The notes under the pieces are model-generated. The model was not told the DNA's origin. It ran no database searches and saw only the letters and a program-made list of their open reading frames with translations. From a virus (lineage: Duplodnaviria; Heunggongvirae; Uroviricota; Caudoviricetes): a stretch of DNA of 64,000 nucleotides. Location: IMG/VR virus record IMGVR_UViG_3300033153_006784, positions 10,375-74,374 of that record. One strand, given 5' to 3'. A program made the position numbers and the translations under genes. This document shows, piece by piece, positions 11,638 through 58,131 of the stretch. Each line of letters begins with the position of its first letter. Positions within the stretch are counted from its first letter, which is position 1.

Positions 11638-11979
11638 TTGACCGTGAACAATTATCATTGTGGTAAAACTTTTAAGATCGATTTGCTTCAGCTTCATTTA
11701 AATCCGAAGCAAAAAGAATACGTTATAGATGTCAATGAAAAGACAGCAAAGCTTCTAATTAAACAAGGAGATTTTATATCTACAGTTGAAACTTTAGCTT
11801 CAGGTATATCTTCAGACCATAATCAAGGTGGACAGTCTCAAAATAGATTTCATAGGAAACGAGAGCAAGCAATCAAACAGTTCTGTAAAAGGATACTGAA
11901 AAGAAGTAAAGAGTTAGAGTTTATAGAACCTAAATATACTGGAAACGAAAGACTTATAAATATCTTAGAAGATATATAG
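11638..11979 (+). CDS. Hypothetical protein
   Basis: ORF only. Confidence 0.3.
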   Translation: MTVNNYHCGKTFKIDLLQLHLNPKQKEYVIDVNEKTAKLLIKQGDFISTVETLASGISSDHNQGGQSQNRFHRKREQAIKQFCKRILKRSKELEFIEPKYTGNERLINILEDI

Positions 11980-18153: not shown

Positions 18154-19224
18154 ATGTCAGAAATTATATTTTTAGGAGAAGATATTCTTAGTTATCCCAA
18201 CGTAATAGGATACAGCAGACGCTTACAACAAAGAATCAAAAACGGTGTCACTCTAGACGATGGAAAAGAAGTCATACGAATATACGTGGCTAAGAAAATT
18301 CCATTAATACTTTTGAATGGCAATGATATGCTCCCATACTCTATCAACGGAATACCCGTAGATATCGTAGAGATAGGATATCCACACATATTTTCAGATC
18401 CAGACCCGCTACCCAATCAAGGTAAATTTCGACCACTAACTCCGGGTTCTAGTATTGGTAATTGGGGGATTACAGCAGGAACACACGGTTGGTATAGTCA
18501 GAAGAATGGTAGTAGTGAAATCTTACCAGACTCTAACGCTCACGTTCTCGTAGACTTCCCAGATAGAAATGAAGCATACGAGAAGCGTATCGTCCAACCC
18601 GGAAAAGCAGACGGTGGGACACTTACCGACATGATAGGTGTCTACGGATGGCATGATCCAATACTCAGACCAGCAATACCCGAACCACCAGAAACACCTA
18701 GCAATTGCCCTGTAACTAGAGGGATTCAAGGATTCCTCAACGGTACATATAGGGTATTCGGTAGAGAATCACACTGGAAAGCATATACATTATCAGGAGC
18801 TAGCCAACCAATCGCACCAGTAAACCATCACGACTTTGCGGTGATGATTCCAGACAACGAAATCGAAATGAACTTTAATACGGTGGACTTTGATATAACA
18901 GACAAGCACAAGTTTGTTGGAAGAGTGTTCGCAGGAAACATATACGTTTCATTAATGTGTAAAGCAAAATATCAGGTAGCAGCCGGATACCAGCCTTACG
19001 GTGTTGAAGTGTACGATGATTCAGATTTAACTTTCTATAAAACTCACTTAATCAAGAGTGGTAGAACGACAGGGTTAAAAGAGAAATTCTTATGGGACTC
19101 AGATGCAGTTGTATCAATCAACTATGGAGACTTTATCGCAAGATTTGAGGATATCATTATCTGTACTCAGCCATTCAGTGCAGGCGGAGATAGCGGATCA
19201 TCGGTGTGGACTATTGTAGAATAG
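18154..19224 (+). CDS. Putative trypsin-like serine peptidase
   Basis: C-terminal GDSGSSVW (the GDSG serine motif) and a possible His block ITAGTHGW. Otherwise unrecognised. Confidence 0.4.
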   Translation: MSEIIFLGEDILSYPNVIGYSRRLQQRIKNGVTLDDGKEVIRIYVAKKIPLILLNGNDMLPYSINGIPVDIVEIGYPHIFSDPDPLPNQGKFRPLTPGSSIGNWGITAGTHGWYSQKNGSSEILPDSNAHVLVDFPDRNEAYEKRIVQPGKADGGTLTDMIGVYGWHDPILRPAIPEPPETPSNCPVTRGIQGFLNGTYRVFGRESHWKAYTLSGASQPIAPVNHHDFAVMIPDNEIEMNFNTVDFDITDKHKFVGRVFAGNIYVSLMCKAKYQVAAGYQPYGVEVYDDSDLTFYKTHLIKSGRTTGLKEKFLWDSDAVVSINYGDFIARFEDIIICTQPFSAGGDSGSSVWTIVE

Positions 19225-19254: not shown

Positions 19255-19268
19255 AACCTTTTTATATA
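19255..19268 (+). promoter_or_regulatory. BRE/TATA-like promoter AACCTTTTTATATA (example of the recurrent motif)
   Basis: The TATA-like box ends about 15 nt before the ATG at 19283, implying a leaderless or short-leader transcript. Confidence 0.5.
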
Positions 19269-19726: not shown

Positions 19727-19882
19727 TGTTATCCGCTCACATAGCGATACAAGCAACACAAAGACAAAGACAACGTAGGAAAAGAATAAGTGAACTAGCT
19801 ACCAACCCAGAACTAAGAAAACTTTTGATAGAAGAGAAAATCATAGAGTAACCTTTTTAAGTGACCTCACCACATCCTTTAT

Positions 19883-20052
19883 AGCCGGAGTAGCACAGTG
19901 GTAGTGCGTCTCCCTTGTAGCGGAGATGGAAAAAGGTAGTAGTCCTTAACACCTTGGTATATAGGTTTTGGAAGTTATGAGACGAACCCACCCTCATATA
20001 TGCCCCGCAAGATAGGAGATGGTCGGGTGTTCGATCCACCCTTCCGGCCCCA
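19883..20052 (+). tRNA. tRNA-Thr (TGT) with an intron of about 95 nt in the anticodon loop, CCA encoded
   Basis: Acceptor gccggag/ttccggc, D-arm gcac-agtggta-gtgc, anticodon stem tctcc with loop ctTGTa. The intron runs about 19919-20013 and begins gcggaga, which is complementary to the anticodon stem. The 3' anticodon stem ggaga follows, then T-arm gggtg-ttcgatc-caccc and CCA. Confidence 0.65.
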
Positions 20053-20056
20053 TTTA

Positions 20057-20130
20057 CGCCTTATGGTTCAATGGTAGAATGTCTCGTTGACATCGAGATG
20101 ATTCCGGTTCGATTCCGGGTAGGGCGACCA
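20057..20130 (+). tRNA. tRNA-Val (GAC), CCA encoded
   Basis: Acceptor cgcctta/tagggcg, D-arm gttc-aatggta-gaat, anticodon arm tctcg-ttGACat-cgaga, T-arm tccgg-ttcgatt-ccggg, CCA. Confidence 0.8.
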
Positions 20131-20165
20131 TAACCTTTATATATGAATTTAAATACATAAAAGAT

Positions 20166-22908: not shown

Positions 22909-23016
22909 ATGAAAATACCTAGTCTTACATACAAAGAAGTAGATGGTAAACTTGTTCTTGTTAAATCAGAAATGATTGAACTCGACACCGAAACCTTTTT
23001 AAAGCTAAATATGTAA
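22909..23016 (+). CDS. Small ORF (35 aa) downstream of a consensus promoter
   Basis: ATG 13 nt after cccttttttttatatat. No similarity assessed. Confidence 0.2.
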   Translation: MKIPSLTYKEVDGKLVLVKSEMIELDTETFLKLNM

Positions 23017-23025
23017 TAATAATTT

Positions 23026-23102
23026 AGTCCTATCGTCTAGTGGACAAGGATACCGGGCTTTGAACCCGGAGATCGTGAGTTCGAATCTCTCTAGGACTAC
23101 CA
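23026..23102 (+). tRNA. tRNA-Gln (TTG), CCA encoded
   Basis: Acceptor agtccta/taggact (perfect), anticodon arm ccggg-ctTTGaa-cccgg, T-loop ttcgaat, CCA. Confidence 0.75.
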
Positions 23103-23142
23103 CTCACCAATACCTTTAAATATAACATTTTATATAATCTGT

Positions 23143-23592
23143 ATGATTAAGATGAACTGGATTACATCATACCTAGCCGTAGGAGACTTTGACGACCTGC
23201 GTAGAACTGAAAACCTCAGAAAAAATGTGGACGCTGTCATAGATATTCGAGATGCTTTTTATATTACTGGCGATAATGTTTGGACTATTGATGCTGGATT
23301 AGCGTTTGGATATGTCACTATGATTGATTCTATGACATCAAAGAAAAAGAAAGTAATGATACATTGTCAAGGAGGAATAGATCGTTCTCCATTTATCGCT
23401 GCACTTTATCTAGTTCATAGAAAAGAAAACCCAATGAATGAGGAAGATGCTTACGAACTTGTCAAACAGAAAAGACCACAGACATTTAAACACTTAGAAT
23501 GGTTTAGTCAAATTCGTGATGCTATGGAAGAGGTAAATACTGATGTTGAAATTGAGGTAGATACTGATGTCGAAATTGACACTGAATTATGA
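23143..23592 (+). CDS. Dual-specificity (Tyr/Ser/Thr) protein phosphatase
   Basis: CX5R P-loop VMIHCQGGIDRSPFIAALYL. Confidence 0.85.
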   Translation: MIKMNWITSYLAVGDFDDLRRTENLRKNVDAVIDIRDAFYITGDNVWTIDAGLAFGYVTMIDSMTSKKKKVMIHCQGGIDRSPFIAALYLVHRKENPMNEEDAYELVKQKRPQTFKHLEWFSQIRDAMEEVNTDVEIEVDTDVEIDTEL

Positions 23593-24379
23593 TAAATTTT
23601 CATTTGATGTAGATCCAAAAGACCTGTTATTCTTAGCTGTCAGTGGATCACACTCATACGGAACCAATAAACCTGACTCTGACTTGGATTTGCGAGGTGT
23701 TTTCATGCCCTCATTCCGAGACGCTATTCAAATTCAAGGCTCATCAATGAAAACAGAATTTTACAAACTTACACCGGACATAGATGTAGAATTTGTACCT
23801 ATTAGAAAGTGGCTTCAAATATTGCTCAAAGGTAATGGAAACTATTTAGAGAACCTATGGCAAACAAAAGTATATCCAAGATCACGACTTGTATATTACA
23901 AAAAAGAAGCAGGAAAAGAAAGAGACATCATCAAGTTAAAACAGCTAGTCATGCAATATGGTCTATCAAAGAAATTCAGAAACCATTATATAGGATTCGC
24001 AAAGTCTCAACAAAAAGACTTCTTCCAAAAGTATAAGACAAAATGTTTACTGTATGTATATAGAGTATTGTTATCAGGTATTATACTATATAAACGTGGC
24101 GTGGTAGAATTTAATCTCCCGAAGATAATCAACACACCAGAATATAGAGTATGTTATCCTATAAGTGTTACAAAACATGTAGACCTGTTACTAAGTAACT
24201 TTGACAATGAAAAATCACTCGTAAATGATATCTTTAAAAGTAGAGTACAAACTGACTTTGACGAATTAGAACACACATTAAATATGTATGCTGATGCAAG
24301 TGATTTGCCCGACAAACCAAACTATGAACCATTCAACGATTGGTTAGAGAACTGGTATTTATCAGAACGCCAATCGTAA
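23567..24379 (+). CDS. Pol-beta-superfamily nucleotidyltransferase
   Basis: hG[GS]x9-13DhD motif LFLAVSGSHSYGTNKPDSDLDLRGVF. Confidence 0.55.
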   Translation: MSKLTLNYDKFSFDVDPKDLLFLAVSGSHSYGTNKPDSDLDLRGVFMPSFRDAIQIQGSSMKTEFYKLTPDIDVEFVPIRKWLQILLKGNGNYLENLWQTKVYPRSRLVYYKKEAGKERDIIKLKQLVMQYGLSKKFRNHYIGFAKSQQKDFFQKYKTKCLLYVYRVLLSGIILYKRGVVEFNLPKIINTPEYRVCYPISVTKHVDLLLSNFDNEKSLVNDIFKSRVQTDFDELEHTLNMYADASDLPDKPNYEPFNDWLENWYLSERQS

Positions 24380-30479: not shown

Positions 30480-30665
30480 AGTGAGATAGAACAGTCAGGT
30501 AGTTCGCAAGGCTCATAATAGGGGCAAGAGTGTAAGTAGGCCAACCTTGGATGATGGACACTGGAAACGGTGCTGAACGATTAATTCAAGGCTCTCACCA
30601 TTCTCTCCAATGAGAAACCTTGAGGCGGTAATCCGGTTCCGGAGGTTCAAATCCTCCTCTCGCTA
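30480..30665 (+). tRNA. Intron-containing tRNA with anticodon CAU (Met or Ile2-type) and an extended variable region
   Basis: Acceptor agtgaga/tctcgct, D-arm gaac-agtcaggta-gttc, anticodon stem caagg with loop ctCATa. A roughly 100-nt insert ends in ...aATGAGaa, complementary to the anticodon loop (anticodon-intron pairing). Then the 3' stem ccttg, an 18-nt variable region and T-arm ggagg-ttcaaat-cctcc. No CCA. Identity uncertain. Confidence 0.45.
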
Positions 30666-30677
30666 CCTTTAAGTTAT

Positions 30678-45602: not shown

Positions 45603-45768
45603 GACGGGTTAGCCAAGTCTGGCCGTAAGGCGTTACACTGCTAAGCAGGACGAAACTCGAAAGCAGGGCGATACTTGAATCAGAACGAAACTGGAACGGT
45701 CTGCACAGAAATGTAATCACTCCGTAACCAATCGGAGTGCAGGGGTTCAAATCCCCTACCCGTCGCCA
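45603..45768 (+). tRNA. tRNA-Ser (GCT), type II, with an intron of about 67 nt, CCA encoded
   Basis: Acceptor gacgggt/acccgtc (perfect), anticodon stem ttaca/tgtaa with loop ctGCTa(a). Insert about 45644-45710. Long variable arm cactccg-taaccaat-cggagtg, T-arm agggg-ttcaaat-cccct, CCA. Confidence 0.65.
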
Positions 45769-48355: not shown

Positions 48356-49525
48356 ATGAAGATTATGCTAATGTCGGATTCTTGGCACACCATTTCTGGT
48401 TTTGGTACTGCCTCACGAAATCTTGCTACATACTTGCATAACGTAGGTCATGATGTTTATTATTTAGGATGGCAAACGTTTGGGCAAAAACAGATAGCAA
48501 CATTTCACGATAAAATTCTTGGATTTAAAGGTTTACCCAACGTTGGAGGTAAACAATTTGGACAGGATGCTTGGAAATACTGGCTTCCTAAGATAGAACC
48601 AGACGTTTTCTTATGTCTTTCAGATTTCTGGATGCTTTTAGAACTCTTTAAACAAAATGAGATTCCTTATCCTTGGCTTATGTGGTATCCTATAGATGGA
48701 TTCCCTGTAACAGACCAAATGCAAGCTATGTTAAAGAAACTTGACTATAGAGTTTGTATCTCTGAATATGGAGGTAAATTAGTTAAAGACATGGGAATTT
48801 CTACAGGAGTAGTACCTCACGGATGTAACACTGATGTGTTTAAACCTTACCACAAAACTGTAATTAAAAGTATGAAGAGAAGATTAGGTATTCCTGAAAA
48901 TAAGTTTGTGATTGGTCGTGTTGACAGAAATCAAAGCAGAAAAAAGGTTCCGAGACTAATCAGAGCCTTTATAAAGTTCCGTAAAGATTACCCAGACAGT
49001 GTTTTATATTTACACATGGATAAGAGAGATACCCAAGGGTGGGATCTTGAGTACATTGTGAAAAGAATGGGACTGATAGAGGGTAAAGATGTATTCTTCC
49101 CACCATCGGACATGATGGCTAACTTTATGTATGGAGTTCCTGAAGAGGAATTAGCACATATAATGAATGTTATCGACATACACGGTTGGACAACAGGTGG
49201 AGAAGGATTCGGACTTACGGGACTAGAAACAATGGCTTGTGGTACTGTCAACGTAGCTACAGATTACACAACTCCTCAAGAAATTTTTGGAGATTGGACA
49301 TGTGGACTACCAATTAAGGTTGAAACATTTGAAATCGGAAATGCTGGAGTAGATAGAGCACTTGTAGATATCGATGATTGCTACGGCAAGATGAAATATC
49401 TAAGAGAGAATCTAGATGAAATGAAAGCACTCAGCGATGCAGGAGTCAAGCGGGCGAGAGATGTCTATGATTGGCAAATAATCTCCAAAGGATTCGATCA
49501 CTGGATGAGGGATAATATAGTATGA
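48356..49525 (+). CDS. Glycosyltransferase (GT1/GT4-like)
   Basis: C-terminal EGFGLTGLETMACGTV (the EX7E-type donor-binding block). Confidence 0.75.
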   Translation: MKIMLMSDSWHTISGFGTASRNLATYLHNVGHDVYYLGWQTFGQKQIATFHDKILGFKGLPNVGGKQFGQDAWKYWLPKIEPDVFLCLSDFWMLLELFKQNEIPYPWLMWYPIDGFPVTDQMQAMLKKLDYRVCISEYGGKLVKDMGISTGVVPHGCNTDVFKPYHKTVIKSMKRRLGIPENKFVIGRVDRNQSRKKVPRLIRAFIKFRKDYPDSVLYLHMDKRDTQGWDLEYIVKRMGLIEGKDVFFPPSDMMANFMYGVPEEELAHIMNVIDIHGWTTGGEGFGLTGLETMACGTVNVATDYTTPQEIFGDWTCGLPIKVETFEIGNAGVDRALVDIDDCYGKMKYLRENLDEMKALSDAGVKRARDVYDWQIISKGFDHWMRDNIV

Positions 49526-49758
49526 TAGACTATATACCTGTACGGTCAGACCACTTTGCGGAAATGGCAGCACTGTTAATTACCAAAAGAGACAGGGATG
49601 TGTTAAACGCTTTCATAGAACTATTACCAGAAAACGTAAAACTAAACAACACTCATTTTAATAACATAAGAATGGCTTCACAACTATCTCCGGGAAATAC
49701 ACTAAAACATCTTGATGAACTTATTGAAGTCTTAAAAGAAGAGGATAGATGGGAATGA
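49522..49758 (+). CDS. Hypothetical small protein
   Basis: ORF only. Confidence 0.3.
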   Translation: MIDYIPVRSDHFAEMAALLITKRDRDVLNAFIELLPENVKLNNTHFNNIRMASQLSPGNTLKHLDELIEVLKEEDRWE

Positions 49759-50957
49759 AAATATTAGTTCAAAATCCATACATGAAAGCTGGTGGTGCAG
49801 AATCCAGAATCAGAACATTACTACAATCTCTAGTTCGTAGACCAGATATAGATCAAGTACACTTTATGTTCAAAGGAGATCAACCCATACATCAAGTAGA
49901 AGCTGATGGAAAGTTTCATTACTGGCAAATTCGACCAAAGACAACTAAAGAAATGACCAAGAAAGTAATCAAAGACTTTGACATCGATATTGTACAGCTA
50001 CATAACAATCAATTTATAGGCACTGGCGGAATTGAATATGCTCAGAAACTAGGAATCCCTACTGTATGGATAATGCACGATTTTTGGCCCTTATGCTCTC
50101 AAAGATTCATGACTAAAGTTTGGGCTGCTGACAGTTCAGAACTATGTTATGACTTAAATATGTCTAAATGTCAAAAATGTGTAGGTAATTATCAAACACT
50201 TTTAACCAAAAGACAGAGGGATATCATCAATAAATGTGATGTAGGTATAGTTCCATCGGAAAATATTAAGAGCATATTTGAAAGAAACGATGTCTTAAAA
50301 GGAAAATTGAAGATAATCAAGCCTTGGATAGACTTGGGAATCTTCGCTCCTGATCCAAGTATAAATAGAAAACCATTTCAAATCTTATTTGCAAGCGGAA
50401 ACTATATTCCTCACAAGGGAATCAATGTTTTACTAAAGGCTTGGGAATATGTTCAAAGAAGATTACCACAAGCAAATCTCATAGCAATCGGAGATCAAAG
50501 ATGTGCAAATGAAACCATATCTAAAGCAAAACAATTACAATTACAAAATGTAAACTTCTTGAATAGGGTAGAACAATCACAGCTTAAAAGATTTTATAAT
50601 GAATCTGCACTAACAATATTCCCTTCAATATGGGAAGAAACCATAGGGTTAGTTTGGATAGAATCTTTAGCTTGTGGAACACCAGTTATATGTTCAGATA
50701 CAGGTAGCATGAAAGAATTGCTATTGTTCGGTGGCGAAATGTTTGAACCTAGAAACCACGTAGCATTAGCAGAAAAAATAGTAGATTTATTATTGTCTCC
50801 GAGCAAAAGAAACATCTACGCACAGCAAGGTCACAAATATGTAACTACAAGTTTTCAACCAACTAGAGCAGCCAATGACTTTGCACATCTTTATTATAAA
50901 TTAGAGGTAGAAAAAATTGACAAAGATAACAAAAGCGGAATTAAAAAAGAAAATTGA
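49749..50957 (+). CDS. Glycosyltransferase family 4
   Basis: EETIGLVWIESLACGTPVICSDTGS. Confidence 0.8.
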   Translation: MGMKILVQNPYMKAGGAESRIRTLLQSLVRRPDIDQVHFMFKGDQPIHQVEADGKFHYWQIRPKTTKEMTKKVIKDFDIDIVQLHNNQFIGTGGIEYAQKLGIPTVWIMHDFWPLCSQRFMTKVWAADSSELCYDLNMSKCQKCVGNYQTLLTKRQRDIINKCDVGIVPSENIKSIFERNDVLKGKLKIIKPWIDLGIFAPDPSINRKPFQILFASGNYIPHKGINVLLKAWEYVQRRLPQANLIAIGDQRCANETISKAKQLQLQNVNFLNRVEQSQLKRFYNESALTIFPSIWEETIGLVWIESLACGTPVICSDTGSMKELLLFGGEMFEPRNHVALAEKIVDLLLSPSKRNIYAQQGHKYVTTSFQPTRAANDFAHLYYKLEVEKIDKDNKSGIKKEN

Positions 50958-51207
50958 GGGAGTAATGGAAATTGCTCCTTATATCAATACATCCAATATG
51001 CATAGAGCATTATTGGAAAAATATCAATACGTGGATATTGAAGAAATAATGGATGAAATAGATAAAGAGAAATTAGCTTCTCTTATGAAAGCACCTGCGA
51101 CTATCATGGTCAAAGGTAACAAATCCCTTGAAGAAGTGGTAAAAAATGCCGAGAGGAAGAAAAAGAAAAAGCTCGAAGAAGAACGAGAAAAAGAAAAAGA
51201 TAAATGA
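50917..51207 (+). CDS. Lys/Glu-rich small protein
   Basis: ORF with a low-complexity KKKKKLEEEREKEKDK tail. Confidence 0.3.
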   Translation: MTKITKAELKKKIEGVMEIAPYINTSNMHRALLEKYQYVDIEEIMDEIDKEKLASLMKAPATIMVKGNKSLEEVVKNAERKKKKKLEEEREKEKDK

Positions 51208-51583
51208 GCGTGTGCCAGAAGCAGAAATGCCCAAGACACAAGCACTCTTCTCAGAAGAGCAGTATGGACTTAGCTTAATGGAAAGTTTCATGAAATCTGA
51301 TATGGATATGATAGCCATAGCTTATAGAGTTCCAACTGGAGATATGGGAAGAGAAGATGTCACAAGAAGGTATCGTAGTCAAATGATTTCGGCACTACAA
51401 ACATTAGGTAAGAGGAGAGGATTAGTAATATCAGTTCAACACATTCATTTTAGAGCTTTACCTATTGGAGAAGATACCATTATAAAAGCATTTGCGGTAA
51501 ATAAAAATATAAATAAAGCAAGAGATAATAAACCGCTTGAGAAAAAAGAAAAAGATGTATTTGATTGGAAAGTGAACGTATGA
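51146..51583 (+). CDS. Hypothetical protein with basic N-terminus
   Basis: ORF only. Confidence 0.3.
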   Translation: MPRGRKRKSSKKNEKKKKINERVPEAEMPKTQALFSEEQYGLSLMESFMKSDMDMIAIAYRVPTGDMGREDVTRRYRSQMISALQTLGKRRGLVISVQHIHFRALPIGEDTIIKAFAVNKNINKARDNKPLEKKEKDVFDWKVNV

Positions 51584-52659
51584 AAATATTAGCAATAGGA
51601 CATAGTATAGCCCACTATCGACAAAGAAAGATGTGGGAAACGATAGCAGAACAGGGACACAAAGTTGATACTGTTGTTGTTCCTAGATACCAGAACGAGG
51701 TATATGAGGAAATTGTTAAAGGCTCTTTCCATCAACACCTAGTTCCGGCATATAACTCAGACAATAATAATTTTTGGTATTTCCCTGCTTTACATGATTT
51801 AGTCATGAAGCTGAAACCAGAAATTATTTTCTGTATGCAGGAACCTTGGACTTATGCGGCATATCATGCTATGAATGTAGCAAAGATATTCGATATTCCT
51901 TATGGGTTCTTTACTTGGGAAAATATTCCTAAACCTTGGCCCCAACCTTGGAGGAACATTGAAAGTGAAGTCATTAAAAATAGTGACATAGCTGTAGGTG
52001 GAAACAAAGATGCATGTGAAATTCTTGTACTGAAAGGTGCAAAGCATGTAGCAAAAGTATTACAATCAGGGTTAGATCCAAATCTATTCTTCCCTGAACC
52101 AGAGTTACAGTTTGAGGAAAAACTAAGACCTAAAAGAATACTGTTTGTAGGTAGATTAACTGCCGCTAAAGGTATAGATATAATTCTAAAATCATTTGAC
52201 AAATTACCAAAAGATGAGTACATACTCAGATTTGTTGGTGGTCGAGGAGAACAAGAAGGACTTATTAGAAAGCACCCAGAATTCGGTAAAAGAATAACAC
52301 TAGAACCTTGGACACAATATGAAAGATTACCAGCAATTTACAATTGGGCAGATGTATCACTTATGACTTCCGTTGATCAACCAATGTGGATTGAACAATG
52401 TGGATATGTCGTAGGAGAATCATTGTTATGTCACGTACCTGTAATCACATCATTTAGTAAGAGTATTCTTGAACTTTGGAAGATGCCGGGAGTATTCTTT
52501 ACACCACAGGGAGACGTAGACTTATTAGCAGATACACTAACACACGAAGAACTATTTAACAAAGAACTGCCGAAAAAAGGTAGACAAGCAGTAATAGACA
52601 ACTACTCAGTAGAAAAGATAGCACAAACATATATAGATATATTCGAGGCAACAATATGA
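51565..52659 (+). CDS. Glycosyltransferase (GT4-like)
   Basis: GESLLCHVPVITS and RLTAAKGIDIIL blocks. Confidence 0.55.
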   Translation: MESERMKILAIGHSIAHYRQRKMWETIAEQGHKVDTVVVPRYQNEVYEEIVKGSFHQHLVPAYNSDNNNFWYFPALHDLVMKLKPEIIFCMQEPWTYAAYHAMNVAKIFDIPYGFFTWENIPKPWPQPWRNIESEVIKNSDIAVGGNKDACEILVLKGAKHVAKVLQSGLDPNLFFPEPELQFEEKLRPKRILFVGRLTAAKGIDIILKSFDKLPKDEYILRFVGGRGEQEGLIRKHPEFGKRITLEPWTQYERLPAIYNWADVSLMTSVDQPMWIEQCGYVVGESLLCHVPVITSFSKSILELWKMPGVFFTPQGDVDLLADTLTHEELFNKELPKKGRQAVIDNYSVEKIAQTYIDIFEATI

Positions 52660-52997
52660 GTATGGATAAAGTGGAAGACACAAAAGTATCATACATGTAC
52701 TCTGCTAGAAACCCGATTGAAATAGTCGAAGACGGAGAGACAAAACTTATTTATGATGTTAAAACTAAAGATTTTACTATAACAAAAGAATTAAAGTTTA
52801 AAATACTACACGCAATTGGAAAAGCACATGGAGAACTAATGGAGATTCCATTTATTATTTTGATTCCTCAAAAACTTGTGAAACATGGATTGTCTAAATA
52901 TGTCAAATCATTTTTAAAATTTAGAGGACACAAATTATACATAGTTCCAACAATTAAAGATATCATAGTTTATGAAGATGGGTGGTTATTTAAATGA
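52656..52997 (+). CDS. Hypothetical protein
   Basis: ORF only. Confidence 0.3.
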   Translation: MSMDKVEDTKVSYMYSARNPIEIVEDGETKLIYDVKTKDFTITKELKFKILHAIGKAHGELMEIPFIILIPQKLVKHGLSKYVKSFLKFRGHKLYIVPTIKDIIVYEDGWLFK

Positions 52998-53148
52998 GTG
53001 AAGAATTTAAGAGTATAGTCGTAAAAGATGGTTTAGAATATTGTCCTCATTGTGAAAAGCATATTGGTTATACTATTGATTGGATTGAACGAAATACTGT
53101 CGGTGTAAAACCTAAGAAAATTCTAAAATTTAAAATGGTGAGAATAGA

Positions 53149-54120
53149 ATGAGTGAAGAAAAACCAATATTAACAGTATGCCCAGAGGCATATCCCGGAA
53201 CAACATCTGTACTTAAACACTACAGTGTATCAAATTTAGTAGAACACAGTGATGAAATATCACCACAAACAGTAGAGGGAAAGAAGCTAGTCATACTTGG
53301 TGGATGGCATCCTATCTATTACGAAGCTGTTAAGAAAATTCATGCTGCCAACGTACCGATAGGAATGTTCTGGACAAGTTCAGTAGGACAGAATGACTTT
53401 TCAAACAATGGAATAGAAATATCATTTATACACATAATCACAGATATGCTCAACTCAGGAATGGTTGATAAATTATTTGTAGCTACACCATCAGTTAAAA
53501 GTATGTATGATCAAATAGTTGATCCTGAGAAGGTTATACTTTTACCATACGCTTTTGATTGGGATGACGTTCAAAAGAGCCTTAAACCAGACGTTCCAGT
53601 AGGGGATGATTGGGTAGATTTATTCTGTCCGGGAGACACTAGAAAGAATATTCTAGTTCAGACACTTGGAACGAAATTAGCAGGTGGTCACTTACATTAC
53701 AGTGGATTAAAACCAAGATATAAATGGTTCGCAGATTTAATTAAATCTAAATACACAGACATGGGATGGATGGGAAAACCCGATCCATATTACACAGCAG
53801 TTCAAACTATGAAGTTAGGTTTACAGGTAACTTACGCTGAAACATTTGACTACGTAGTAGCAGAACACTTTGCATTGAAAAGACCTTGCTTAATTTCGAC
53901 AGTAATGACACAATGGGTAGACAACAAAAGACTTCTAAAGGATATCCTAGTTCATAATCTTGACGAACCGCTAGAAGTAGCAGAAAAAATCGAACATGTG
54001 TTAAATATGAGCAATAAAAGATGGAAAAACTTAAATAATAGATGCCACTCTTTTATGAAAGATGAAGCTAAAAAGAGAAATGATATCGCTACTGAAGTGC
54101 TCAGAGGAGAAGTAGAATGA
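53149..54120 (+). CDS. Hypothetical protein (within the glycosylation island)
   Basis: ORF only. Confidence 0.3.
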   Translation: MSEEKPILTVCPEAYPGTTSVLKHYSVSNLVEHSDEISPQTVEGKKLVILGGWHPIYYEAVKKIHAANVPIGMFWTSSVGQNDFSNNGIEISFIHIITDMLNSGMVDKLFVATPSVKSMYDQIVDPEKVILLPYAFDWDDVQKSLKPDVPVGDDWVDLFCPGDTRKNILVQTLGTKLAGGHLHYSGLKPRYKWFADLIKSKYTDMGWMGKPDPYYTAVQTMKLGLQVTYAETFDYVVAEHFALKRPCLISTVMTQWVDNKRLLKDILVHNLDEPLEVAEKIEHVLNMSNKRWKNLNNRCHSFMKDEAKKRNDIATEVLRGEVE

Positions 54121-55133
54121 ATATATTAATTACCGGAGGAGCCGGATTTATCGGATTTGCATCTGCCGTTGAGTTGATAAACAAAGGGCATGATGTTACT
54201 ATTTTAGACAAAGTTGTTGGCGGTAGAAATGAACTTAATTGGAACATGGCTAAACAAATGGGTATTCCTAGAATTCATGCTAACATCAATGACTTGAATA
54301 TTTTACCAGAATTAATCAATATTGGTAAAGATTTTGATGCAATTTTACACTGTGCCGCACAAACAGCAGTTACACATTCATTGGAAGATCCTAGAGCAGA
54401 CTTTATAGACAATGCTAGAGGAACATTCGAAGTGTGTGAGTATGCTAGAAAGAACGATTTGGCAATACTGTACACCAGTACAAATAAAGTATATGGTGAA
54501 AATCCAAACAAAGTACAACTTGTTGAACAAGATACCAGATATGAATATGGCAATCCAAAATTTTGCATCGATGAAACATTCTTAATTGATCTGACAGGAC
54601 ATACACCGTACGGTACATCAAAACTTACAGCCGACCTCTATGTTCAAGATTATAGATACACCTATGGATTACGAACACTCGTATTTAGACAGAGTTGTAT
54701 CTATGGAACTAGCCAACAAGGTACTGAAGATCAAGGATGGGTATCTCACATGGTTAAAAGTTGGGTAAATAGAAAACCAATAAAAGTTTTCGGAAATGGT
54801 AAACAGGTAAGAGACATGCTCCACGTAGATGATTTAACTGATTTAATAATTAAAGGTTTAGAATCTGATAGGTCAGGAGTCTTTAATGTTGGTGGAAGTC
54901 TACTAAATACAATATCAATATTAGAATTATTTGAACTTCTTAATAAACTAGCTCCGAGAGAGGATGCGTATTCGTTCTTCCCTTGGAGAGAAGGAGATCA
55001 GAAAGTCTTTATATGCAACATTAGAAAAGTAATCAAACAATTCGATTGGATACCAAAAATATCTCCCGTAGAAGGAATTACACACATGGTCAGATATGAA
55101 GAAATGTTACAAAATGCTGTTAAAGTTAGGTGA
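54117..55133 (+). CDS. NAD-dependent sugar epimerase/dehydratase (SDR family)
   Basis: TGGAGFIGFA Rossmann motif and catalytic YGTSKLTADLY (YxxxK). Confidence 0.85.
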   Translation: MNILITGGAGFIGFASAVELINKGHDVTILDKVVGGRNELNWNMAKQMGIPRIHANINDLNILPELINIGKDFDAILHCAAQTAVTHSLEDPRADFIDNARGTFEVCEYARKNDLAILYTSTNKVYGENPNKVQLVEQDTRYEYGNPKFCIDETFLIDLTGHTPYGTSKLTADLYVQDYRYTYGLRTLVFRQSCIYGTSQQGTEDQGWVSHMVKSWVNRKPIKVFGNGKQVRDMLHVDDLTDLIIKGLESDRSGVFNVGGSLLNTISILELFELLNKLAPREDAYSFFPWREGDQKVFICNIRKVIKQFDWIPKISPVEGITHMVRYEEMLQNAVKVR

Positions 55134-55825
55134 ATAAAATGGAAATACCGTATGAAGAAATAATGAAATATTACCACACTGGAAAACTACCTCCAGTGCA
55201 GACACTACCCGTATTCAGAAGAGAATACGATGATATAGAACAAGTTGTAGGTAAAGGATACAAAGTCTTAGACTTTGGATGTGGAAGAGGATTAGTTTAC
55301 ACCAAATTCTTGCAAGCACTTCCCTATGATATCGAATACGTTGGTATAGATATTGATCCAAGTTTGAAAGGCAAAGTACCTTTCCCACTCTATGAATCTC
55401 TAGAAGAATTTGAAGACACATATTCACCACGACACTTTGATGGACTATTTTTACTAGATGTCTTGGAACATTTATCTTTAAAAGAAGGTTACGATACACT
55501 GGCAAGATTAAACAAATATATCGATGGCGATATTGTATTAATGACACCCAACGCAAGTTGTTTAGATTACATATACAACGATCCACAACATGTAACAATA
55601 TATCCTTCACATTGGATTTATGGATTACTTAAACATTTAGGTTTCGATAAAATAATAATGAAAAGAGGTAAAGGGCTACATGCACGAAGAGAACAATTAG
55701 CTAGGGAAAACCCTAATCAAGCAGAACAATACAAAGTTATGAATGAAAGTCAACGACAGATATGTGCTTCTATGGGACTAGATTGGTATGGAAATCTGCT
55801 AGCTATAGGTAAGCGTGATGAATAA
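55130..55825 (+). CDS. Class I SAM-dependent methyltransferase
   Basis: VLDFGCGRGLV motif I. Confidence 0.75.
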   Translation: MNKMEIPYEEIMKYYHTGKLPPVQTLPVFRREYDDIEQVVGKGYKVLDFGCGRGLVYTKFLQALPYDIEYVGIDIDPSLKGKVPFPLYESLEEFEDTYSPRHFDGLFLLDVLEHLSLKEGYDTLARLNKYIDGDIVLMTPNASCLDYIYNDPQHVTIYPSHWIYGLLKHLGFDKIIMKRGKGLHARREQLARENPNQAEQYKVMNESQRQICASMGLDWYGNLLAIGKRDE

Positions 55826-56720
55826 GAAAATACTTGTCATGAGCACTTTTCAAGAGGGTGCTTATGGACACTTAATTGTCAAAGCCCTACGTGAAATGGG
55901 ACATCGTGTATTAGGTATAGATCATAGAATGCTCCAAGCTGTCAATTTTGGAAAGCAACACAAAAGTGACCAAATGGTAAAATTCTATGTGAACGGGTTT
56001 GAACCAGATATATTGTTTACAATTAAAGGAAGAGGAATTAGTCCGAGAGTTATCAAAGATATTACCGCATTCAAGGTGAACTGGTGGCTAGATAATGCTA
56101 ACAGGTTTGCTGAGTTTGAAGGTCTAATTGAACATTATGATAAATATTATCTTTGTGAGGACAGTCAAGGACACCCTTGGATGTCGGTAGGAATAGATCC
56201 AGATTGGCATAAACCAGTTTACAGTGATGATCCAAAATATAAAAGCGATATTGTCTTCGCAGGAACGGCACACGTACATAGAAGCCCTAGAATTCTTAAA
56301 ATATTAGCAGGATTACCCTACGAAGTAGCTATCTGGGGTAATAGTTGGCCACCAAATACACCATATCTCCGAGGAGAGGCTAGATATCTCAATGAGGACT
56401 TTATGACAATCATGACAAATTCTAATTTTGTGTTGAACAATCACTATGTTCCCGGCATTACTCCTAATATGAGAACAATAGAAGGCCCTGCAAGCGGTAC
56501 TGCATTGCTCTCAGACACAGGAGAAGGCATAGAGAAAACTTTAAATAAGGGAACTGAATATATTGCTTATGACACTCCCAAGGAAGCCAGATATTTGATC
56601 TATAAATATTTAGAAGAACCTGAAGAAAGAGAGAAAATAGCAAAGGCTGGACTTGATAGAGTCAATAAAGATCATCTATTAAAAGATAAGTTGGTTAAAA
56701 TGTTATGTCTAAACCAGTAG
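55815..56720 (+). CDS. CgeB-like glycosyltransferase-family protein
   Basis: C-terminal region IEGPASGTALLSD resembles the CgeB / GT group-1-like domain. Confidence 0.45.
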   Translation: MMNKKILVMSTFQEGAYGHLIVKALREMGHRVLGIDHRMLQAVNFGKQHKSDQMVKFYVNGFEPDILFTIKGRGISPRVIKDITAFKVNWWLDNANRFAEFEGLIEHYDKYYLCEDSQGHPWMSVGIDPDWHKPVYSDDPKYKSDIVFAGTAHVHRSPRILKILAGLPYEVAIWGNSWPPNTPYLRGEARYLNEDFMTIMTNSNFVLNNHYVPGITPNMRTIEGPASGTALLSDTGEGIEKTLNKGTEYIAYDTPKEARYLIYKYLEEPEEREKIAKAGLDRVNKDHLLKDKLVKMLCLNQ

Positions 56721-57049
56721 TAATAACGAAAGAAATAATCCTTAGAAGTCAGCGAGGTATGATGAATGATTGTTATCTGTATTGCGTTGACTGTCCACAA
56801 GCAGAGGAACAAATTCAGATGCTAGGAGAGGAAGATAATAAAAAGAATAAAAAAGTTCCCATCACTAAAATAATTTTTTATCGTTGTGCAATGCCTCCGG
56901 GAAATTCTGTCACTTATAACAATAAGGAGAGAGGGAGAGGAAAGTTTGTTAAATTAACACCAGAACAAATCGAAGAACGAAATGAACTCCTTAAAAAACT
57001 TCCAACACTTGAAACGGATAAACTTCTAAATAAGATTGGTAAAAAATGA
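56705..57049 (+). CDS. Hypothetical protein
   Basis: ORF only. Confidence 0.3.
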   Translation: MSKPVVITKEIILRSQRGMMNDCYLYCVDCPQAEEQIQMLGEEDNKKNKKVPITKIIFYRCAMPPGNSVTYNNKERGRGKFVKLTPEQIEERNELLKKLPTLETDKLLNKIGKK

Positions 57050-58131
57050 AAGTAACTTATACAGGCAAGATGGATATCGGTGGCTCCGGTATTGGAACAA
57101 CTGCTTGGCATCAAGTTAAACCTTTACTTGACAATAACTTAATTGAACAAATATACACTACTAAGATGTCAAAACCAGTTAATGATGATAGATTAGTTAC
57201 TTATATTCCCGAATTGAAATATAGCTATCCTATTGGTTATTTAGCTGGAGATATCTTCTTTGATGGTGTTACAGCATTAGGAATGGAAAACCCAGAGGTT
57301 ATTCACACATGGGGAGCACAATGTTTGTATCAATTACAGACGCATCCCGACGCAGTTTCAATTGTAAATCTTTATAGTGCTCATCCATATATTCAAGATC
57401 AACTGTTAAAAAATTCACCATTATACCGTCCAAATCATCTACACATGAAAAAGTTTGCAGAAGAATTAGAACTTTGTGACCATATATTTATACCTTCTGA
57501 TTTTATTTTATCCTCTCTTAAAGATGTAGGGTTACATAGAAAAGCTAAAATTGTACCATTCGGAGTTGACTTAGAAAAGTTCAATGTTCCTAAAAACAAT
57601 GAAAAAGCTGAAGAATTTCAAGTAGTTTTTGTAGGATCAAACTGGAAAAGAAAAGGCTTAATGACTCTTTTACAAGCGTGGGACAATTTAAAATTTGAAA
57701 AAGCCAAGTTATATGTTTGTGGTGTTCCAGATAATCTAGGAGCATGGCTTAAAGAAAATACACCATTTGAATCTGACAACGTACACTTTGGATGGGTAGA
57801 TGATTTAGTTGAACTTTACCAAAAATCACACGTATTTTGTTTACCTGCATACGAAGATGGCTGTCCTTTAGCTACATACGAAGCTATGGCTTGCGGAACT
57901 TTACCCATCATAACAAACACTACAGGAACTAGGCAACATGTCTATAATGGTAGAAATGGATTCGTTCTTAACGCTGGAAATGTAAAAGAACTAGGTGAAT
58001 TATTATCTGGTCTGTATGATGATAGAAATGCTTGTGTTGATATAGGACTGAAAGCTAGACAACATATTGAAGCATTTCCTTGGGAAAGACATGAACAAGA
58101 TTATCTGAATTGGATTAAAGGTTTACTTTAA
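57046..58131 (+). CDS. Glycosyltransferase family 4
   Basis: CLPAYEDGCPLATYEAMACGTLPIITN. Confidence 0.8.
   Translation: MKVTYTGKMDIGGSGIGTTAWHQVKPLLDNNLIEQIYTTKMSKPVNDDRLVTYIPELKYSYPIGYLAGDIFFDGVTALGMENPEVIHTWGAQCLYQLQTHPDAVSIVNLYSAHPYIQDQLLKNSPLYRPNHLHMKKFAEELELCDHIFIPSDFILSSLKDVGLHRKAKIVPFGVDLEKFNVPKNNEKAEEFQVVFVGSNWKRKGLMTLLQAWDNLKFEKAKLYVCGVPDNLGAWLKENTPFESDNVHFGWVDDLVELYQKSHVFCLPAYEDGCPLATYEAMACGTLPIITNTTGTRQHVYNGRNGFVLNAGNVKELGELLSGLYDDRNACVDIGLKARQHIEAFPWERHEQDYLNWIKGLL

What the first reader, a model, noticed from the sequence alone, without database searches (positions are those of the whole stretch)
19883..20052. tRNA-Thr(UGU) interrupted by a roughly 95-nt intron in the anticodon loop, with encoded CCA
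The tRNA has a clean acceptor stem, D arm and T arm. The anticodon stem tctcc and loop ctTGTa are followed by an insert that begins gcggaga, complementary to the anticodon stem, before the 3' half ggaga resumes with normal spacing to the T-arm. The insert is placed by eye between positions 37 and 38, which is the splicing-endonuclease type of site used in archaea and eukaryotes, not bacterial group I. With the other intron-bearing tRNAs here, it implies the virus depends on a host splicing endonuclease and replicates in an archaeal-type host.
Basis: seen in the sequence. Interest (0 to 1): 0.6.

Follow-up and report, generated by a model that had tools for sequence, protein, structure and literature searches.

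The report
Spliced tRNA-Thr gene in archaeal virus
A virus-encoded threonine tRNA gene is interrupted by a 94-base intron with the exact fold that archaeal tRNA-splicing enzymes cut, so this tailed virus infects an archaeon and relies on the host to mature its own tRNA; the kind of intron is well known, and its presence in viral tRNAs has only sparse precedent.

Summary
ARAGORN with intron search calls tRNA-Thr(UGU) at 19884..20052: a 75-nt mature tRNA with encoded CCA and a 94-nt intron (19920..20013) between positions 37 and 38. The junctions form a strict bulge-helix-bulge motif. C32-G35 pairs 4/4 with intron CAAG, the 3-nt bulges are UA|G and AU|A, and a 3-bp outer helix and the intact anticodon stem flank them. 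Shuffled introns reach this in 0.16% of trials. A related contig carries an intronless tRNA-Thr in the same Thr-Val-Ile order, with the same loop (CUUGUAA) that splicing predicts.

The window is a tailed virus with archaeal-type genes: T4-type terminase, tail tube, PolB, PCNA, PriS-like primase and RadA-like recombinase. It also has a TATA-like motif about 27 nt before gene and tRNA starts. Relatives encode TFIIB, Hjc and Thg1. No splicing endonuclease or RtcB was found among the window's ORFs of 100 aa or more, so host EndA and ligase are inferred.

Two more tRNAs in the window and several in relatives carry introns at 37/38, and the intron segment tracks the anticodon (31/36 pairs in register, 12-16 when slid). 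It is a new member of a known kind. The precedent is haloarchaeal virus HGTV-1, which has one intron-bearing tRNA. The host lineage is unresolved.

The parts
19850..19859 (+). Promoter-like motif AACCTTTTTA. Its TATA-like part is centred about 27 nt before the first base of the tRNA.
   Evidence: There are 11 exact copies in the window, all on the + strand, most 28-45 nt before a gene or tRNA start. Allowing one mismatch gives 44 matches against 20.7 expected. The spacing of 34 nt is the same before tRNA-Gln (22992 to 23026).
19884..19919 (+). 5' exon of tRNA-Thr(UGU): acceptor 5' strand, D arm, anticodon-stem 5' strand, and loop positions 32-37 (CTTGTA; anticodon TGT at 19916..19918).
   Evidence: ARAGORN -i.
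19920..20013 (+). 94-nt intron between tRNA positions 37 and 38.
   Evidence: ARAGORN -i and BHB geometry. Its interior is not unusually structured (z = -1.15). It has no C/D boxes, no Rfam family and no other copy in the window or in the loci held at that call.
19914..19917 (+). Central BHB helix, 5' strand (C32 U33 U34 G35). It pairs with 20008..20011.
   Evidence: 4/4 Watson-Crick pairs, CTTG/CAAG.
19918..19920 (+). 5' bulge U36 A37 | G. The predicted 5' cleavage site lies after 19919.
   Evidence: BHB definition from PMC4090602.
19921..19923 (+). Outer helix h', 5' strand (CGG). It pairs with 20005..20007 (CCG).
   Evidence: This helix is also present in the unconstrained minimum-free-energy fold.
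20008..20011 (+). Central BHB helix, 3' strand (CAAG, intron nt 89-92).
20012..20014 (+). 3' bulge A U | A38. The predicted 3' cleavage site lies after 20013.
20014..20052 (+). 3' exon: A38, anticodon-stem 3' strand GGAGA, variable loop, T arm, acceptor 3' strand, C73, and encoded CCA (20050..20052).
   Evidence: The spliced product is recognised as tRNA-Thr.
20057..20130 (+). tRNA-Val(GAC), 4 nt downstream, probably in the same transcript as tRNA-Thr.
   Evidence: The same Thr-Val-Ile order is found in relative L006.
30480..30667 (+). Second intron-bearing tRNA (CAU anticodon). Intron 30518..30616 (99 nt) at 37/38, central helix CTCA/TGAG 4/4.
45603..45768 (+). Third intron-bearing tRNA, Ser(GCU) by BHB register. 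Intron 45644..45710 (67 nt) at 37/38, central helix 3/4, outer helix 5 bp.
   Evidence: Rfam tRNA 37.9 bits.

Best explanation
This is a functional, virus-encoded tRNA-Thr(UGU) gene of an uncultivated archaeal tailed virus, interrupted at the canonical 37/38 position by a 94-nt bulge-helix-bulge (BHB) intron.

Shown:
- The gene, the exon boundaries and the BHB fold.
- The archaeal character of the virus.
- An intronless ortholog in a relative.

Inferred:
- Transcription starts at an archaeal-type promoter about 27 nt upstream and probably runs through tRNA-Val.
- In the precursor, loop positions 32-35 pair with the last part of the intron. This presents two 3-nt bulges, four base pairs apart, to the host's RNA-splicing endonuclease (EndA).
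- EndA cuts after A37 and after the last intron base, leaving a 2',3'-cyclic phosphate and a 5'-OH.
- A host RtcB-type ligase joins the exons into a 75-nt tRNA that already carries CCA. The intron is released, probably as a circle.
- The mature tRNA reads ACA, the virus's most used Thr codon.
For: - ARAGORN -i calls the gene with a 94-nt intron at 37/38. The spliced sequence is a normal tRNA-Thr.
- Strict hBHBh': central helix 4/4, bulges UA|G and AU|A, outer helix 3 bp, anticodon stem 5 bp plus 2. Only 0.16% of shuffled introns match this.
- The BHB-constrained fold is only 3.4 kcal/mol above the minimum-free-energy fold, which itself keeps the cloverleaf and the outer helix.
- The motif matches the published definition: a 4-bp helix between two 3-nt bulges, with the first two anticodon bases paired to the intron (PMC4090602).
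- The intronless ortholog in L006 has the same Thr-Val(GAC)-Ile(GAT) order and the loop CTTGTAA, identical to the predicted spliced loop.
- Across nine intron entries (eight distinct) from the window and relatives, 31/36 central-helix positions pair in register, against 12-16/36 when slid. Neighbouring Lys(CUU) and Lys(UUU) genes have GGAG versus GAAG, a compensatory change.
- Archaeal context in the window: PCNA, PolB, PriS-like, RadA-like, TerL and tail tube. In relatives: TFIIB, Hjc and Thg1. The promoter motif sits at about -27. Homologs of two window proteins are mainly in archaeal MAGs and genomes.
- The identical intron allele was assembled from two other samples, and from a third with one interior substitution.
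- ACA makes up 393 of 735 Thr codons.
Against: - There are no RNA data, so splicing itself is not shown.
- The host is unknown. The one scan of genome collections found no provirus or co-binned contig.
- At least 20 kb of the 84-kb contig is outside the window, so a virus-encoded endonuclease or ligase cannot be excluded. One relative has an Rnl2-type RNA ligase fragment.
- The unconstrained minimum-free-energy fold does not draw the two bulges exactly.
- The intron start repeats GGAGATGG of the 3' exon and could compete for the anticodon stem.
- C73 is an unusual discriminator base for tRNA-Thr (my own knowledge).
Confidence: 0.85

Rival explanations
1. The gene is a dead tRNA, disrupted by insertion of about 93 nt of foreign or duplicated DNA. 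The 8-nt direct repeat GGAGATGG would be a target-site duplication, and the gene would make no working tRNA.
For: GGAGATGG occurs at 19922..19929 and at 20015..20022. The start of the intron weakly resembles a tRNA 3' half in the Rfam partial alignment.
Against: Removing the insert together with one repeat copy leaves an aberrant 8-nt loop, CTTGTAGC. BHB splicing gives CTTGTAA, the loop of the intronless ortholog. The strict BHB is expected in 0.16% of random inserts. Every stem of the tRNA is intact. The allele is unchanged across samples. It is the only tRNA-Thr in the window, and it serves the commonest Thr codon. There are no other copies of the insert.
Confidence: 0.05
2. The intron is removed without host EndA, either by self-splicing or self-cleavage (group I-like or a small ribozyme) or by a virus-encoded endonuclease and ligase located outside the window.
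For: Part of the viral genome is unseen. A relative carries an Rnl2-family RNA ligase fragment. HGTV-1 encodes RtcB and Rnl2 ligases (PMC8651126). The window has an RlaP nucleotidyltransferase and a phosphatase next to the tRNAs.
Against: At 94 nt, the intron is far below group I size. Rfam finds no ribozyme or intron family at E up to 10. The interior fold is no better than shuffles. The three window introns share no sequence. No EndA or RtcB domain was found in about 69 window ORFs scanned. The BHB geometry is exactly what EndA requires, and a self-splicing intron would not explain it.
Confidence: 0.07
3. The virus infects a bacterium or a eukaryote, and the BHB-like fold is a coincidence.
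For: The terminase's nearest isolate matches are bacteriophages at 23-29% identity. The encoded CCA is more typical of bacterial tRNA genes (my own knowledge).
Against: The window encodes PCNA, PriS-like and RadA-like proteins, and relatives encode TFIIB, Hjc and Thg1. A TATA-like motif sits at about -27 before start codons, with no room for a bacterial -35/-10 plus leader. A tail tube and terminase exclude eukaryotic giant viruses. BHB complementarity recurs in eight distinct introns.
Confidence: 0.03

Closest known systems
Canonical archaeal pre-tRNA introns (hBHBh' motif at 37/38, cut by EndA, joined by RtcB)
   Same: Same position, 4-bp central helix using positions 32-35, two 3-nt bulges cut after their second base, and flanking helices.
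   Different: The gene sits in a viral genome, not a cellular one. At 94 nt, the intron is at the long end of the reported 11-129 nt range, whose median is mostly 12-25 nt (PMC4090602). CCA is encoded.
Haloarchaeal tailed virus HGTV-1 (Halomagnusvirus): 34-36 tRNA genes, one with an intron
   Same: It is an archaeal member of Caudoviricetes with a large tRNA set that includes an intron-bearing tRNA (PMC13532342; PMC8651126).
   Different: There is no detectable close relationship: no archaeal virus is among the listed matches, and all 409 terminase matches in the phage collection are below 60% identity, with those listed at 23-29%. This virus is low in G+C (35.8%), and it and its relatives come from sediment and other environmental metagenomes, not salterns. 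It has at least 3 introns in 20 tRNAs. No RtcB, Rnl2 or CCA-adding enzyme was seen in the window, whereas HGTV-1 encodes them.
Bacterial and phage group I introns in tRNA anticodon loops
   Same: They also interrupt the anticodon loop of a tRNA gene.
   Different: Group I introns are several hundred nt long with a conserved catalytic core. This one is 94 nt, has no Rfam hit, and has BHB junctions instead of P1/P10 pairing.
Haloferax tRNA-Trp intron carrying a box C/D guide RNA
   Same: It is a long (about 65-100 nt) BHB intron at the canonical site (PMC4090602).
   Different: This intron has no C box or D box.

Membership tests
Archaeal BHB (splicing-endonuclease) tRNA intron | The intron lies within a tRNA gene whose exons join into a complete cloverleaf; the canonical site is between positions 37 and 38. 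| tested here: met
   ARAGORN -i gives i(37,94). The spliced sequence is called tRNA-Thr(tgt). The spliced loop equals that of the intronless ortholog.
Archaeal BHB (splicing-endonuclease) tRNA intron | A central 4-bp helix is flanked by two 3-nt bulges on opposite strands, with each splice site inside a bulge. | tested here: met
   CTTG/CAAG pairs 4/4, with bulges TA|G and AT|A. The chance with shuffled introns is 0.0016.
Archaeal BHB (splicing-endonuclease) tRNA intron | The first two anticodon bases pair with the intron as part of the central helix. | tested here: met
   U34 and G35 pair with A and C of intron CAAG. Definition from PMC4090602.
Archaeal BHB (splicing-endonuclease) tRNA intron | Flanking helices lie on both sides (strict hBHBh'). 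| tested here: met
   The anticodon stem is 5 bp plus 2 further pairs. The outer helix CGG/CCG is 3 bp and is also present in the unconstrained fold.
Archaeal BHB (splicing-endonuclease) tRNA intron | Cleavage by EndA and ligation by RtcB give the mature tRNA and a free (circular) intron. | not testable with these tools
   No RNA or enzyme data are available.
Archaeal BHB (splicing-endonuclease) tRNA intron | The element resides in an organism, or a virus of an organism, that has EndA (archaea or eukaryotes). | tested here: inconclusive
   The host was not identified. The archaeal character of the virus is well supported.
Group I self-splicing tRNA intron | A conserved catalytic core (P3-P9), typically more than 200 nt, recognisable by Rfam RF00028. 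| tested here: not met
   The intron is 94 nt. There is no hit at the gathering threshold or at E up to 10 over 19800..20140.
Box C/D guide RNA nested in a tRNA intron | A C box (RUGAUGA) and a D box (CUGA). | tested here: not met
   Neither box has an exact match in the intron.

The most novel reading that the evidence does not exclude
The unusually long introns in this viral family's tRNAs (16-106 nt, and 94 nt here) may be kept because they do something for the virus. One option is that the excised, RtcB-circularised intron acts as a stable regulatory or anti-defence RNA. Another is that the intron gates tRNA maturation on host EndA/RtcB activity, or shields the viral tRNA gene or transcript from anticodon nucleases, CRISPR targeting or integration by rival elements. 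The intron's presence in this virus and absence from the orthologous tRNA-Thr of a relative, together with the tandem hairpin repeats in the Ser introns, would then reflect an evolving functional module and not neutral baggage.
Probability: 0.12. Interest if true: 0.7.

Novelty: new member of a known kind. Interest (0 to 1): 0.42.

Why it matters
A BHB intron in a viral tRNA is a sequence-only marker that the virus replicates in a cell with a tRNA-splicing endonuclease. Here it agrees with independent protein and promoter evidence, and it assigns an undescribed family of sediment tailed viruses to archaeal hosts. That family has at least 20 tRNA genes in 64 kb, close to the archaeal-virus record of 34-36 in HGTV-1. 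The finding also shows that viral tRNA supply can depend on host RNA-processing enzymes. Finally, the family offers a natural set of intron-plus and intron-minus orthologs for asking why archaeal tRNA introns persist.

Tried and rejected
- ARAGORN in default mode and Rfam at the gathering threshold do not see the gene. Only the intron-aware search does.
- An exact-pattern scan of IMG/VR for an intron-bearing tRNA-Thr with the same anticodon arm found nothing.
- A single-protein terminase scan of IMG/VR found nothing. The alignment-based scan found only one family member there.
- The genome-collection scan gave only two distant bacterial matches and no host clue.
- blastn of the region against isolate phage and archaeal-virus records found only an unrelated tRNA match.
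- blastn of the three window introns against the loci held at that call found no other copies and no similarity among them.
- A search for a second, non-canonical BHB intron in the long extra arm of the CAU tRNA found nothing convincing.
- Host lineage could not be narrowed from homologs of the NAL1-like protease or of NAD synthase. The hits are archaeal but spread over Bathyarchaeia, Desulfurococcaceae, Acidilobaceae, DPANN, Thermococcales and methanogens, at 36-45% identity.
- The contig beyond the window ends could be read only in part. A look-up with the first ORF failed, and the others returned shorter contigs.
- The group I, C/D-box and target-site-duplication readings were considered and rejected.

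Full report
**Observation**

The region reads as a complete tRNA split by an insert. Default ARAGORN lists 17 tRNAs in the window but not this one. Rfam's tRNA model at its gathering score also misses it. In a permissive local search it aligns only the D arm, the anticodon arm and a pseudo T arm, at 21 bits.

With intron search switched on, ARAGORN calls tRNA-Thr(tgt) at 19884..20052. The call has these features:
- a 94-nt intron at 19920..20013, between positions 37 and 38;
- a 7-bp acceptor stem with one G-U pair;
- a 4-bp D stem, a 5-bp anticodon stem and a 5-bp T stem;
- C73 as discriminator base and an encoded CCA.

The spliced 75-mer is called as a plain tRNA-Thr(tgt). Everything else in the description holds.

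**Junction structure**

Loop positions 32-35 (CUUG) pair perfectly with intron bases 89-92 (CAAG). The 5' splice site lies in the 3-nt bulge U36 A37 | G, and the 3' splice site lies in the 3-nt bulge A U | A38. Beyond the bulges, intron CGG pairs with CCG (3 bp), and the anticodon stem is intact.

This is the strict hBHBh' form of the archaeal splicing motif as defined in the literature: a 4-bp helix between two 3-nt bulges, with the first two anticodon bases paired to the intron (PMC4090602).

- Shuffling the intron 200,000 times gives a 4/4 central helix plus an outer helix of at least 3 bp in 0.16% of trials.
- The fold constrained to the BHB is -49.5 kcal/mol, against -52.9 for the unconstrained minimum. 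The unconstrained fold keeps the cloverleaf and the outer helix and differs only in how it draws the bulged region.
- The intron interior folds no better than shuffles (z = -1.15).
- The intron has no C or D box, matches no Rfam family, and has no other copy in the window or in the loci held at that call.

If it is treated as a target-site duplication, excision would leave an 8-nt loop. I therefore read it as an alternative pairing or a coincidence, not as the scar of an insertion.

**Comparative evidence**

The neighbouring 356-aa gene (18154..19224) is a NAL1-like protease with many archaeal homologs. Its closest relative, at 52% identity, lies on a 3.7-kb contig (L006). That contig carries tRNA-Thr(tgt), tRNA-Val(gac) and tRNA-Ile(gat) in the same order as the window, but the Thr gene has no intron. 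Its anticodon loop is CTTGTAA, exactly the loop predicted by splicing at 37/38.

The intron-bearing allele itself was assembled identically from two other samples. A third sample has a single interior A-to-G change.

**The virus**

The window is densely coded on one strand. The genes fall into three groups.
- Virion and packaging: a T4-type large terminase and a tail tube protein.
- Replication and recombination: family B DNA polymerase, PCNA, a PriS-like primase and a RadA/Rad51-like protein.
- Auxiliary: a block of NAD-salvage genes and many glycosyltransferases.

No isolate virus is close: the listed terminase matches are at 23-29% identity, all to bacteriophages.

Terminase homologs at 47-72% identity define a family of uncultivated contigs. 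They come from several JGI metagenomes and from the Loki's Castle deep-sea sediment assemblies SDBU and SDBV. Family members encode TFIIB, a Holliday-junction endonuclease of the archaeal Hjc type, and Thg1.

A motif AACCTTTWTA occurs 11 times exactly, always on the coding strand. Most copies lie 28-45 nt before a start codon or a tRNA 5' end, including 34 nt before both tRNA-Thr and tRNA-Gln. This places a TATA-like box at about -27, as in archaeal promoters with leaderless transcripts; that comparison rests on my own knowledge of archaeal promoters.

Named homologs of the protease and of the NAD synthase are almost all archaeal, but they are spread over many lineages at 36-45% identity. The host domain is therefore well supported and the host lineage is not.

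**Introns across the family**

Two further tRNAs in the window carry introns at 37/38.
- A CAU-anticodon tRNA at 30480..30667 has a 99-nt intron, with central helix CUCA/UGAG 4/4.
- tRNA-Ser(GCU) at 45603..45768 has a 67-nt intron, with central helix 3/4 and a 5-bp outer helix. ARAGORN places this intron differently and reads the anticodon as AGA; the BHB register gives GCU.

Relatives carry intron-bearing Ser(GCU), Lys(CUU), Lys(UUU), CAU and UGC-anticodon tRNAs, with introns of 16-106 nt.

Across nine intron entries (eight distinct sequences), 31 of 36 central-helix positions pair in the canonical register. Sliding the intron strand by 1-4 nt gives 12-16 of 36. The adjacent Lys(CUU) and Lys(UUU) genes of L094 have intron partners GGAG and GAAG, a compensatory change with C34 and U34. 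The intron segment thus tracks the anticodon, as expected if the BHB is under selection.

**Mechanism**

Shown: the gene structure, the BHB fold, the archaeal character of the virus and the intronless ortholog.

Inferred:
- Transcription starts from the motif at 19850, probably through tRNA-Val, which begins 4 nt after the CCA.
- Host EndA cleaves after 19919 and after 20013.
- An RtcB-type ligase joins the exons.
- The tRNA is used for ACA, which makes up 393 of 735 Thr codons in the window's ORFs.

No EndA or RtcB domain was found in about 69 window ORFs of 100 aa or more. The longest contig holding this virus is 84 kb, so part of the genome is unseen. One relative has an Rnl2-type RNA ligase fragment.

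**Comparison with what is known, and novelty**

BHB introns at 37/38 are textbook archaeal biology. A viral precedent exists. HGTV-1, a haloarchaeal tailed virus with 34-36 tRNA genes, has one intron-bearing tRNA and encodes RtcB and Rnl2 ligases (PMC13532342; PMC8651126).

My searches of the held literature found no other report of BHB introns in viral tRNAs. That is an absence in the library, not proof.

What is new here is the setting:
- an undescribed, low-G+C family of tailed archaeal viruses from sediment and other environmental metagenomes;
- a large tRNA set, with about 15% of the window's tRNAs interrupted;
- introns much longer than the archaeal median;
- intron presence or absence differing between orthologs.

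I rate this a new member of a known kind, of moderate interest.

Noticed in passing
window 19850..19859, 22992..23001, 20132..20141, 19255..19264, 31451, 35624, 36679, 41830 and others: The motif AACCTTTWTA has 11 exact copies, all on the + strand, mostly 28-45 nt before gene or tRNA starts. It looks like an archaeal BRE/TATA-type promoter at about -27, implying mostly leaderless transcripts.
   Followed up: partly
window 30480..30667: This CAU-anticodon tRNA has A1:U72 (an initiator-like feature), A73 and an 18-nt extra arm that is unusual for Met or Ile tRNAs, plus a 99-nt BHB intron. No second intron explains the extra arm. The L094 counterpart has a normal 5-nt variable loop.
   Followed up: partly
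window 45644..45710; L004 7224..7287; L097 about 6611..6713: The tRNA-Ser(GCU) introns of the window and relatives contain two or three tandem units of about 20-25 nt (GCAGGGYNANACUNGAANC), each able to form a small hairpin (sequences). Their function is unknown.
   Followed up: no
window 23143..24379: A dual-specificity phosphatase and an RlaP ('RNA repair pathway' Pol-beta-family nucleotidyltransferase) overlap as a gene pair right after tRNA-Gln. This is a possible RNA-end healing or repair module.
   Followed up: no
window 11638..11979: A 113-aa ORF matches eRF1 domain 2 and baeRF release-factor-like families.
   Followed up: no
window 250..3822: An NAD-salvage block: isochorismatase (nicotinamidase-like), NAD synthase, NUDIX hydrolase and a cytidylyltransferase-like (NMNAT-like) protein, with PCNA in between.
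   Followed up: no
window 23026..23102 (+) and 23041..23118 (-): ARAGORN calls tRNA-Gln on the + strand and an overlapping tRNA-Arg on the - strand. Rfam supports only the + strand call, so the - strand call is probably a mirror artefact.
   Followed up: no
window 48356..58131: A long run of group-1 glycosyltransferases, epimerases/dehydratases and methyltransferases sits between the replication and tail genes. It suggests virus-directed glycan synthesis or modification.
   Followed up: no
L094 4126..4299: ARAGORN calls this Ser(tga) with a 102-nt intron. The BHB register (CTTG/CAAG 4/4, 6-bp outer helix) instead gives a UGC anticodon at 37/38. Its anticodon arm resembles that of the window's tRNA-Thr, but its acceptor stem pairs poorly.
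   Followed up: partly
L007 2562..3296; L008 2566..3459 and 3870..4220: Relatives of the virus encode Thg1 (tRNA-His guanylyltransferase), TFIIB and an Hjc-type resolvase.
   Followed up: no
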